DNA of 8,067 nt, taken from positions 1 through 8,067 of the IMG/VR virus record IMGVR_UViG_3300037059_000105; one strand, 5' to 3'. Below are positions 195-1,820 of this stretch, piece after piece (position 1 is the stretch's first letter; every line of letters begins with the position of its first letter). Source of the stretch: a virus. The translations under genes were made by a program, and so were the position numbers. Under the pieces are notes generated by a model that ran no database searches, had not been told where the DNA came from, and saw only the letters and a list, made by a program, of their open reading frames with translations.

Positions 195-271
195 CGCGGG
201 GTGGAGCAGTCTGGCAGCTCGTCGGGCTCATAACCCGAAGGTCGCAGGTTCAAATCCTGCCCCCGCAACCA
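195..271 (+). tRNA. tRNA-fMet (initiator, anticodon CAU), complete 77 nt with encoded CCA
   Basis: The sequence cgcggggtggagcagtctggcagctcgtcgggCTCATAAcccgaaggtcgcaggttcaaatcctgcccccgcaacca closely matches enterobacterial and pseudomonad tRNA-fMet as recalled from memory. It has the C1xA72 mismatch and three consecutive G:C pairs closing the anticodon stem, both initiator hallmarks. Anticodon CAT is at 229-231. Confidence 0.95.
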
Positions 272-1820
272 AAATTACAGACAGGCCGGCAGCGAAAGCT
301 GCCCGGCCTGTTCCTGCTTCTATTTCCACGAAGACAGAGCCGTCACGCGCGACCATGTTCATCTCGCCGATCATCTTCCGGATCAGCTCGCGGGCGGTGG
401 CGTGGTCGCTGGCCAGTGATGCCTCGAGGTCGGAAACCATCTTCCGATAGTCCTCGACCTTCCCCATGATCTGCAGGGATGCGTTCTCGTCGTTGATCTC
501 CAGATCGGCGGCCAGCATCTCGCGCTCTGTTTCCACCTGCTTCAGCCTGGCTTGCAGTGCGGGCGAAATGCCGATGCTGGTGATGGCATCGACCAGCCGA
601 CCCACTTCCTTGTCGATCTCCTCGAGGCGAGCACGTGACGCCTTGGCCCGCTGCGCGCGGTCCTGCCGCAGGTTGTCGAGCAGCACCCGCACCTTCGCCT
701 GCATGGCCACCAGCGCATCCGGGCTCATCAGCTCCTCCCGGATCACTTCCAGCAGGCGTGAATCCACCTTATCGCGTCTGGCCTGAATGCCCTTGCACAC
801 GGATTCCCCCCGATCCTTCCTGGCCGTGCAGCCGTAGTAGCGGCCGCTGGTCGCCACCACAGACCCGCCGCACTTCCCGCAGCGGATCAGGCCGCCGAAC
901 AGAGTGCGAGGAGAGCGGCCACGCCCAGCGCTGCCTCCCTCGCACGTCGGGCGGCCCATACGTTCACGCACAGCAGCCCAGAGGGCATCGCTGACGATGC
1001 GCAGCTCCGGGCGGTCTTCAATAATCCACTCCTCGCGGGGACGCTCCAGCCGGGTCCGCTTGTCCGTGTCCGGATCCTTTACCCACTGAGAGCGGTTCCA
1101 GATCTGCCGGCCGATGTAGAGCTCGTTGCACAACACGCCCGACCCCTTCGCCGGCGACCCATACAGCGCCGACACCGCCCAGGTACCGCCTCGGCCAGAC
1201 GGAATCCCGCGCTTGTTCAAGTCGCTGGCCAGCTGCTGGCAGCTCCAGCCGGCGGCGTAGCGCTCGAAGATCCAGCGCACCAGATCCGCCTGCTCCGGCA
1301 CGATCTCCAGTTTATGTATCGCCCCTGCTGACACGCTACGGTACCCATAGGACAACCCGCCCGCGTGGCCGCCGCGGGCCAGCTGGCCAGCCAGCCCCCG
1401 GTGCGTCTTGTGTCGCAGATCGTCCAGATAGATCTCGTTGATCAGGCCGCGCATCGTCCGGTGGATCTTGCGGCCGGCAAGTTCAGAGTCGTAGCCGTCC
1501 GACACACCCACGATGCGGATGTTGCGGTACTCAAACCGGCGGACGGTGCGCTCCTGCTCGACCTGGTCGCGGGACAGCCGGTCGAGGCCTTCGATGATCA
1601 GCACCTCAAACCGGCCAGCCAGTGCATCGGCCAGCAGCTTGGTGCCGCCCGATCGGTGGGCGACGGGGACAGTCCCCGACACACCCTCATCGGAATAGAC
1701 CGCAGAAACAGAAACGCCGATCAAGTCGGCGTACTGGGTACAGATTCGGGCCTGATCTTCAACTGAAGTCTGGCGTTGCAGGTCGGTTGAGAACCGGGCG
1801 TAGATGACAGCGTTTTTCAT
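228..1820 (-). CDS. Large serine recombinase (putative integrase), 530 aa
   Basis: The N-terminus MKNAVIYARFSTDLQ carries the resolvase catalytic Ser motif, followed by DEGVSG and LDRLSRD. A central recombinase domain (GGLSYGY) follows, then a zinc-ribbon CGKCGG...YYGC...VCKG and a long helical, coiled-coil-like C-terminal region. The start is set at ATG 1820, where the catalytic domain begins, not at the track start 1871. The stop TGA at 228-230 lies in the tRNA anticodon loop. Confidence 0.9.
   Translation of the reverse strand: MKNAVIYARFSTDLQRQTSVEDQARICTQYADLIGVSVSAVYSDEGVSGTVPVAHRSGGTKLLADALAGRFEVLIIEGLDRLSRDQVEQERTVRRFEYRNIRIVGVSDGYDSELAGRKIHRTMRGLINEIYLDDLRHKTHRGLAGQLARGGHAGGLSYGYRSVSAGAIHKLEIVPEQADLVRWIFERYAAGWSCQQLASDLNKRGIPSGRGGTWAVSALYGSPAKGSGVLCNELYIGRQIWNRSQWVKDPDTDKRTRLERPREEWIIEDRPELRIVSDALWAAVRERMGRPTCEGGSAGRGRSPRTLFGGLIRCGKCGGSVVATSGRYYGCTARKDRGESVCKGIQARRDKVDSRLLEVIREELMSPDALVAMQAKVRVLLDNLRQDRAQRAKASRARLEEIDKEVGRLVDAITSIGISPALQARLKQVETEREMLAADLEINDENASLQIMGKVEDYRKMVSDLEASLASDHATARELIRKMIGEMNMVARDGSVFVEIEAGTGRAAFAAGLSVILVAGAGFEPATFGL
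281..311. terminator. GC-rich hairpin with a GAAA tetraloop, a putative bidirectional terminator just 3' of the tRNA
   Basis: acaggccggcagc (281-293), GAAA, gctgcccggcctgt (298-311) form 13 bp with one bulged C (304). On the plus strand it is followed by ttcctgcttctatttcc. On the minus strand it is followed by ctgtaattttggtt. It lies inside the recombinase reading frame. Confidence 0.6.

What the first reader, a model, noticed from the sequence alone, without database searches (positions are those of the whole stretch)
228..337. Serine recombinase ORF crosses the element/host junction and stops inside the tRNA-fMet anticodon loop
The recombinase frame has no stop until TGA at 228-230, the complement of the anticodon loop (anticodon CAT 229-231). 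Its last 14 codons (231-271) are antisense tRNA, and the codons before them run through the 281-311 hairpin. By hand count, G/C at codon position 3 is 22/24 for codons spanning 327-398 but only 13/32 for the final 32 codons (231-326). Coding bias therefore collapses at about 327. At that point lies an AT-rich patch (318-326) flanked by an imperfect inverted repeat, CTGCTTC (314-320) and GAAGACAG (330-337). My reading is that the att junction lies in the 3' end of the recombinase gene, so the protein's C-terminal tail depends on integration state. Precedents for int/attP overlap are Mx8 intP and SSV1 int, both tyrosine enzymes. tRNA targeting is typical of tyrosine integrases and rare for serine recombinases. 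The Ralstonia phiRSM small serine recombinase, which targets a tRNA-Ser gene, is the precedent I recall.
Basis: partly seen in the sequence, partly recalled or inferred. Interest (0 to 1): 0.6.

Follow-up and report, generated by a model that had tools for sequence, protein, structure and literature searches.

The report
Phage integrase swaps tail on insertion
A bacterial virus inserts into the end of the host's initiator tRNA gene at a site inside its own integrase gene, so insertion replaces the enzyme's conserved last nine residues with seven read backwards off the tRNA, which may act as a built-in switch between inserting and excising.

Summary
The overlap is real. It is one junction (attL) of a P2-like prophage inserted by a large serine integrase into tRNA-fMet. 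The junction is not at 318-326 as proposed. It lies in the tRNA 3' end (shared core 259-271; crossover most likely 260/261). Free-phage relatives ~97% identical in protein match the window to base 256 and then end ...FGKKRLILVS instead of ...FEPATFGL. One natural pair is identical over residues 1-523. Three related prophages (29-40 kb) carry the 13-15 bp repeat and the alternative tail at their far end, and one assembly holds the exact empty site. The codon-bias drop comes from a terminator-like hairpin that the phage supplies for the tRNA inside its integrase gene. The free-phage tail is under protein-level selection and is predicted as an extra beta-strand; the prophage tail is predicted disordered. 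A conserved small upstream ORF is modelled at the site where excision cofactors bind. The function of the tail swap is inferred, not shown. Published precedents exist (DsiB at ssrA, rumA ICEs, Mx8). This scan has reported the same layout before on other DNA, in at least ten genomes. Verdict: new variant of a known kind.

The parts
228..1820 (-). Large serine integrase gene, prophage (attL) form, 530 aa: catalytic, recombinase, zinc-ribbon/coiled-coil domains
   Evidence: Pfam Resolvase 1.8e-23, Recombinase 9.2e-22, Zn ribbon 1e-8; PHROG 95 integrase 1e-86; model of a 97% identical relative matches SPbeta, Bxb1 and phiC31 integrases
195..271 (+). tRNA-fMet gene, restored target: 5' part host, 3' end supplied by the phage
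   Evidence: ARAGORN; direct-repeat pairs and empty site in relatives
259..271 (.). att core: 13 bp shared by both prophage ends in relatives (16 bp, 256-271, with the closest free-phage relatives); crossover most likely between 261 and 260
   Evidence: attP symmetry axis peaks there, 47 against 14-37 at 44 other positions
228..251 (-). Host-encoded tail, residues 524-530 plus stop, replacing the 9-residue phage tail
   Evidence: P0019 and P0024 identical over residues 1-523 and different after
273..282 (-). Probable phage-arm zinc-ribbon-domain binding motif of attP (13-22 bp from the axis)
   Evidence: inverted counterpart at equal distance in reconstructed and natural attP sites; role inferred from LSR att architecture
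281..326 (+). Phage-supplied terminator-like hairpin (281-311) and pyrimidine/U-rich tract (312-326) behind the restored tRNA, encoded antisense within integrase codons ~499-514
   Evidence: a hairpin at this position with z <= -2.8 in 28 of 30 family loci despite unrelated sequences; not called by the simple terminator scan because the U-run is imperfect
1759..1947 (-). Small ORF (62 aa) overlapping the integrase start; conserved amphipathic helix; candidate recombination directionality factor (RDF)
   Evidence: helix found upstream of int in 18 related loci; complex model 0.66 against best control 0.25
153..181 (+). Host sigma-70-type promoter of the target tRNA
   Evidence: 10/12 consensus match; function inferred
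1..110 (+). Upstream host tRNA-fMet paralogue (cut by the window edge, 1-63) with its own terminator (69-110)
   Evidence: terminator resembles the host terminators displaced to the far prophage ends in Denitromonas and Thauera
1948..8067 (-). Prophage accessory/early genes (two DNA methyltransferases, PAPS-reductase-like, YfbR-like phosphatase)
   Evidence: 84-96% identical in blocks to a P2-like phage contig

Best explanation
A P2-like temperate phage carries attP inside the last codons of its large serine integrase gene. It recombines with the 3' end of host tRNA-fMet at the T-stem/acceptor-stem junction. SHOWN by comparison: the phage supplies the last ~11-13 tRNA bases; the host terminator is displaced to the far end; a phage hairpin takes its place; the integrase loses its 9-residue basic/hydrophobic tail and ends on 7 residues read antisense from the tRNA, stopping at the anticodon loop; excision restores the phage tail. 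INFERRED: the phage tail is a functional beta-strand that adds to the zinc-ribbon domain, so the free-phage and prophage enzymes differ in behaviour. Most likely the tailed form is the efficient integrating enzyme, and the tail-less prophage form keeps all canonical domains and works with the small upstream helix protein (candidate RDF) to excise. Confidence: about 0.97 for the anatomy and tail swap, 0.8 that the phage tail is selected at protein level, 0.55 that the two forms differ in activity in a way that matters, 0.6 that the upstream ORF is the RDF.
For: Natural pairs: seven full or partial relatives of one 90% cluster end in the phage tail and two in the tRNA tail; P0019 and P0024 are identical over 1-523. 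Free-phage gene order int-portal-terminase-P2 capsid. Direct repeats bounding 39.7, 36.9 and 29.4 kb elements, with the alternative tail in frame at the far end. A 37,141-bp contig begins and ends with the core. The exact empty site, 239/239, is in the Denitromonas assembly. Selection on the phage tail in 7 sequences: pS 0.63 against pN 0.36 in the int frame (0.39/0.42 and 0.52/0.40 in the other frames); Val invariant over three codons; stop at the same codon in 7/7 using all three stop codons. In 150 cluster representatives, 48 end in the antisense-tRNA tail of frame A, 12 in frame B, none in the frame that would read through the tRNA, and about 45 carry phage-type tails enriched in K/R and V/I/L and poor in D/E. 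AlphaFold2: strand 526-530 formed in the phage form, residues 506-530 below pLDDT 50 in the prophage form. Solved integrases align only to about residue 503-523, so the prophage form keeps the canonical fold. Candidate RDF modelled at the zinc-domain/coiled-coil junction: score 0.66, best of 3 controls 0.25; that mark was reached by 58 of 80 solved complexes and 2 of 110 mismatched pairs; runs agree in at least 88% of contacts; partner pLDDT at least 63. Verified RDFs are predicted at this junction, and C-terminal beta-strands were proposed to block it (PMC12286644).
Against: No activity data. The far end of this very prophage is outside the 8-kb record, so its own phage tail is inferred from ~97% identical relatives. 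The tail codons also form the P' arm of attP, so part of their conservation may be DNA-level. The selection test rests on 7 related sequences and 9 codons. The AlphaFold contrast is partly confounded: the tRNA-tail columns are invariant and carry no covariation signal. The models do not show that the tail strand and the candidate RDF compete for one surface, and the candidate is a helix, not a strand. Integrase-RDF complexes have been solved (SPbeta), so that pass may owe something to likeness. Distant phage-type tails vary in length and sequence.
Confidence: 0.6

Rival explanations
1. Neutral packing: attP lies in a dispensable C-terminal extension. The overlap only keeps int and attP linked and compact, and both tails give the same enzyme activity.
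For: The prophage form retains everything that aligns to solved integrases. Excision evidently happens with the prophage form (empty site). McMurdie et al. raised a trivial reading for DsiB (PMC3146451). The stop at the anticodon loop follows automatically from the tRNA sequence.
Against: Synonymous-biased change, fixed length and conserved residue character of the phage tail; predicted ordered strand.
Confidence: 0.25
2. The swap regulates protein amount, not mechanism: one tail is a C-terminal protease signal (basic residues followed by an apolar end recall the ClpX MuA-type motif; from my own knowledge), or loss of the phage's own terminator and convergent tRNA transcription lowers int expression in the lysogen.
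For: Free C-terminal position and basic-then-apolar pattern. Terminator-like hairpins with U-runs follow the stop in free-phage forms and are moved to the far end on integration. The strong host tRNA promoter points at int.
Against: The alternating pattern and the predicted docked strand fit a structural role better than a free degron. Not tested here. It does not exclude the best explanation.
Confidence: 0.12
3. One reading: the junction is at the AT-rich patch 318-326 between the two short inverted repeats, and everything below it is host DNA.
For: The GC3 drop starts there.
Against: Free-phage relatives are continuous with the window through 326-256. Both prophage ends in relatives share only the tRNA 3' end. 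The inverted repeat is not conserved.
Confidence: 0.01
4. The ORF merely lost its stop in a decayed element beside a tRNA, or the overlap is an assembly artefact.
For: The record is a short viral contig without the second end.
Against: The same overlap recurs in ten other close loci (L002/L031 is one strain) and 60 of 150 cluster representatives, with matched free forms.
Confidence: 0.02

Closest known systems
Dehalococcoides ssrA islands, DsiB (McMurdie et al. 2011, PMC3146451)
   Same: Large serine recombinase whose gene always overlaps attL at its 3' end and stops only in the antisense of a structural RNA gene; the authors suggested it may be fully functional only on the circle.
   Different: Target is tmRNA, the element is an island with a second recombinase (DsiA), and the circular-form tail was not characterised. 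Here: a P2-like phage, tRNA-fMet, a single recombinase, both forms seen in nature.
Streptococcal ICEs integrated in rumA (PMC4701971)
   Same: [quoted passage not shown]
   Different: Target is a protein-coding gene; no tRNA restoration or embedded terminator.
Myxococcus phage Mx8 IntP (as described in PMC4701971 and PMC4383910)
   Same: attP inside int; integration replaces the C terminus; the integrated form is less active.
   Different: Tyrosine integrase; 112 residues replaced by 13, against 9 by 7 here.
Canonical large serine integrases and their RDFs (SPbeta, Bxb1, phiC31, A118/LI; PMC11722253, PMC12286644)
   Same: Domain order, fold, short att core with symmetric arms, small cofactor predicted at the zinc-domain/coiled-coil junction.
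   Different: Their solved chains end before the position of the swapped strand. To my knowledge their att sites lie outside the int coding sequence and their targets are not tRNA genes.
Serine recombinases at tRNA ends: phiRSM (PMC4471427) and Mycobacterium AICEs at tRNA-Leu (PMC3218068)
   Same: Serine enzyme, tRNA target, short (13-base for phiRSM) shared 3' end.
   Different: phiRSM is a small resolvase-type enzyme with attP between genes. No tail swap appears in the passages read. These papers and Islander (PMC4383910) call tRNA targeting by serine recombinases rare or unknown.

Membership tests
Large serine integrase | Resolvase + Recombinase + zinc-ribbon domains with coiled coil | tested here: met
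Large serine integrase | Catalytic Ser and Arg/Asp motif intact | tested here: met
   Y7, R9, S11, R81, R84 and four zinc cysteines invariant or nearly so
Large serine integrase | Element bounded by attL/attR with short shared core; attP with symmetric arms | tested here: met
   met in relatives; the far end of this record is missing
Large serine integrase | Two-base crossover and unidirectional attP x attB recombination | not testable with these tools
   crossover at 260/261 is inferred from symmetry and the edge of the identity block
Large serine integrase | Cognate RDF needed for excision | tested here: inconclusive
   candidate passes the model test (0.66 against 0.25); no activity data
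Integrases with att inside their own gene (Mx8/DsiB/rumA type) | C terminus differs between free and integrated states | tested here: met
Integrases with att inside their own gene (Mx8/DsiB/rumA type) | The two forms differ in activity | not testable with these tools
   indirect support only
Dehalococcoides ssrA islands | tmRNA target and dsiA-containing six-gene module | tested here: not met
   target is tRNA-fMet; no second recombinase among the window proteins scanned or in close relatives
phiRSM-type small serine recombinase | Resolvase-size enzyme, attP outside the gene, filamentous phage | tested here: not met
P2-like temperate phage | P2 portal, terminase, scaffold, capsid, Ogr | tested here: inconclusive
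   not inside this 8-kb record; present on contigs whose integrase is ~97% identical

The most novel reading that the evidence does not exclude
A widespread clade of tRNA-targeting large serine integrases encodes recombination direction in its own DNA state. The free phage makes an enzyme with a terminal beta-strand that favours integration and resists the RDF; integration deletes that strand and makes the prophage enzyme responsive to a one-helix RDF encoded just upstream. The same 70 bases serve as integrase codons, att arm, tRNA end and tRNA terminator.
Probability: 0.3. Interest if true: 0.8.

Novelty: new variant of a known kind. Interest (0 to 1): 0.55.

Why it matters
Published surveys describe tRNA targeting by serine integrases as rare or unknown, yet at least 60 of the 150 nearest cluster representatives end in antisense initiator tRNA. 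These enzymes recognise one of the most conserved sites in bacteria, which suits genome engineering. Database proteins taken from prophages carry the tRNA-derived tail, so integrase screens that clone the annotated gene may test the wrong form. The identical-but-for-tail natural pair and the candidate cofactor make a standing question (does att-inside-int regulate direction, as guessed for DsiB and rumA ICEs, and do C-terminal strands block RDF binding?) directly testable in a standard plasmid assay.

Tried and rejected
GenBank phages held no close relative (best 34% identity). Junction at 318-326 and the 314-337 inverted repeat: rejected. Selection for a stop in the anticodon loop as such: not needed; it is simply the first stop in that frame, and a second frame stops in the T-loop. 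The simple terminator scan did not call the 281-326 hairpin; two of 30 loci lack a significant hairpin. Mageeney et al. 2020 (TIGER) was not held, so prior mention there is not excluded. Durrant et al. 2022 has no occurrence of 'tRNA' in its main text. Ten literature searches found no paper describing this clade's tail swap; most subscription journals are not searched. Fold searches could not say which strand the tail pairs with; no solved chain aligned beyond about residue 523.

Full report
OBSERVATION. The minus-strand ORF from ATG 1820 runs 530 codons to TGA 228-230, opposite the anticodon loop of tRNA-Met(CAT) at 195-271. GC3 counts reproduce exactly (22/24 and 13/32), and the drop is significant against the gene body (403/498; p=1.6e-6; no body window of 32 codons below 17). 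The protein is a large serine recombinase. The tRNA is the second of two tandem initiator tRNA genes and has its own promoter-like site at 153-181.

WHERE THE JUNCTION IS. Not at 318-326. Four lines of evidence place it in the tRNA 3' end. (1) Proteins of one 90% cluster, 509-512 of 522 residues identical to the window's, come in two forms: 530 aa ending FEPATFGL and 532 aa ending FGKKRLILVS. P0019 and P0024 are identical over residues 1-523. On DNA, the 532-aa form matches the window through the AT-rich patch, the hairpin and tRNA bases 271-256, then diverges. One such contig continues into P2-type portal, terminase and capsid genes, i.e. the free-phage arrangement; L032, 58% identical, does the same. 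(2) In Denitromonas, Thauera and Roseateles genomes the 13-15 bp tRNA end recurs 39.7, 36.9 and 29.4 kb away, flanked on one side by a host terminator-like hairpin and on the other by an in-frame alternative tail two residues longer than the prophage tail. In Denitromonas, portal and terminase genes follow that end. (3) The Denitromonas assembly contains a 239-bp contig identical to the reconstructed empty site, consistent with spontaneous excision. (4) A Lysobacter contig of 37,141 bp begins and ends with the core. The minimal shared block corresponds to window 259-271. Summed over six attP sites, inverted symmetry at 10-25 bp peaks at an axis between 261 and 260 (47; all 44 other positions 14-37). 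That axis is also where it should lie if the phage must supply everything from the crossover to CCA. The two-base crossover position is an inference.

WHY CODON BIAS COLLAPSES. The last 32 codons do several jobs. 312-326 is a pyrimidine-rich tract and 281-311 a strong hairpin on the tRNA strand. A hairpin starting a few bases after CCA occurs in 28 of 30 family loci tested (z <= -2.8) with unrelated sequences, usually followed by a U-rich run. Since integration moves the host terminator to the far end, the simplest reading is a replacement terminator built into the integrase gene; termination itself is not shown. 273-282 is the probable att-arm motif, 260-271 the phage copy of the tRNA end, and the rest is host tRNA.

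IS THE PHAGE TAIL FUNCTIONAL? In seven phage-form tails of the near clade the stop falls at the same codon using all three stop codons, a valine is kept over three codons, and synonymous sites have changed more than non-synonymous ones in the integrase frame only (pS 0.63, pN 0.36). The sample is small and related, and the same bases form the P' arm. Among 150 representatives at 50% identity, 48 end in the tRNA tail of this frame, 12 stop earlier in a second frame, none uses the third frame, which has no stop in the tRNA, and about 45 carry phage-type tails rich in basic and aliphatic residues. AlphaFold2 gives the phage form a terminal strand at 526-530 after a flexible linker, whereas the prophage form is unstructured from 506; the comparison is partly confounded by the invariant tRNA columns. 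Solved integrases align only up to about residue 503-523, so the strand is an addition to the canonical fold and the prophage form should remain catalytically complete.

CANDIDATE COFACTOR. A short ORF (1759-1947) overlapping the integrase start encodes an amphipathic helix found in the same position in 18 related loci. Folded with integrase residues 300-514 of the prophage form (L127/P0019 pair), it docks on residues 359-384, 446-458, 483-485 and 500-509, the zinc-domain/coiled-coil junction. Score 0.66, best of 3 controls 0.25; the mark was reached by 58 of 80 solved complexes and 2 of 110 mismatched pairs; runs agree in at least 88% of contacts; partner pLDDT at least 63. This supports binding but does not show it, and solved integrase-RDF complexes may have helped the score. 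Verified RDFs are predicted at this junction; most add a beta-strand to the domain's sheet, and extra C-terminal strands were proposed to block the site (PMC12286644). In SPbeta the essential RDF element is a helix packing between that domain and the coiled-coil hinge (PMC11722253).

MECHANISM. Shown by comparison: site, target, tail swap, both states in nature. Inferred: terminator function, exact crossover, a role for the tail, RDF identity. I favour a functional difference between the forms (tailed enzyme integrates, tail-less enzyme excises with the cofactor), at about 0.55-0.6. The specific model in which the strand excludes the cofactor is about 0.3. Neutral overlap (0.25) and control of protein amount (0.12) remain open.

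RELATION TO KNOWN SYSTEMS. It is a large serine integrase. att-inside-int is published for the serine enzymes DsiB (PMC3146451) and the rumA ICE integrases, and for the tyrosine enzyme of Mx8, where the integrated form is less active (PMC4701971). Serine recombinases at tRNA ends are published for phiRSM and Mycobacterium AICEs and called rare; Islander assumed none. I found no paper on this clade, but the TIGER paper could not be read. This scan has reported the same layout in many other genomes, two at initiator tRNA; those notes agreed with a reading I had already reached and are not counted as evidence. What this locus adds is a natural protein pair differing only in the tail, evidence of selection on the phage tail, the embedded hairpin and a candidate RDF.

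VERDICT. Observation confirmed; interpretation partly supported (right idea, junction misplaced by about 60 bases). New variant of a known kind; interest 0.55.

Noticed in passing
window 1-63: The upstream tRNA-fMet copy ends in CCC, not CCA, so the intact CCA-ending copy in view is the one completed by the phage. Some family members also supply a non-CCA end (L001, L033, L006).
   Followed up: partly
L003 / L030 (Zoogloea LCSB751), 11500-11900: A 64% identical integrase has an unrelated tail, lacks the core and has no tRNA within 10 kb: a close relative that seems to have moved to another target.
   Followed up: no
L148 and L157 (far ends in G008 and G010): The 'host' flank at the far end is a hairpin resembling the element's own embedded hairpin, possibly left by an earlier element of the same family at the site.
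   Followed up: no
L024, L027, L048, L052, L055, L057, L058, L064, L082, L089, L102, L104, L105, L107: Distant (22-30% identity) Firmicute homologues run into the 3' ends of tRNA-Leu, -Lys, -Val, -Ala or -Ser in the same antisense way; L013/L066 against L018 form a matching integrated/free pair at a tRNA-Met-like sequence.
   Followed up: partly
P0109, P0119, P0149, P0153, P0154, P0156, P0171, P0179: Eight representatives end in a related but distinct tRNA-derived tail, suggesting a sub-clade at another tRNA (proline type by my reading of the peptide; DNA not checked).
   Followed up: no
window 2340-6477: The prophage carries two DNA methyltransferases (a 605-aa C5 type and a small PHROG 954 type) and a PAPS-reductase-like gene; the latter two are absent from the closest relative L125, a variable accessory block.
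   Followed up: no
P0028 against P0003: Two near-identical integrases differ after residue FE with a longer tail in P0028; it may be an insertion at a degenerate tRNA copy.
   Followed up: no
L139 (G006:C14): A longer tRNA-Met 3' fragment (about 30 bases) behind a terminator-like hairpin, probably the far end of an element in that genome.
   Followed up: no
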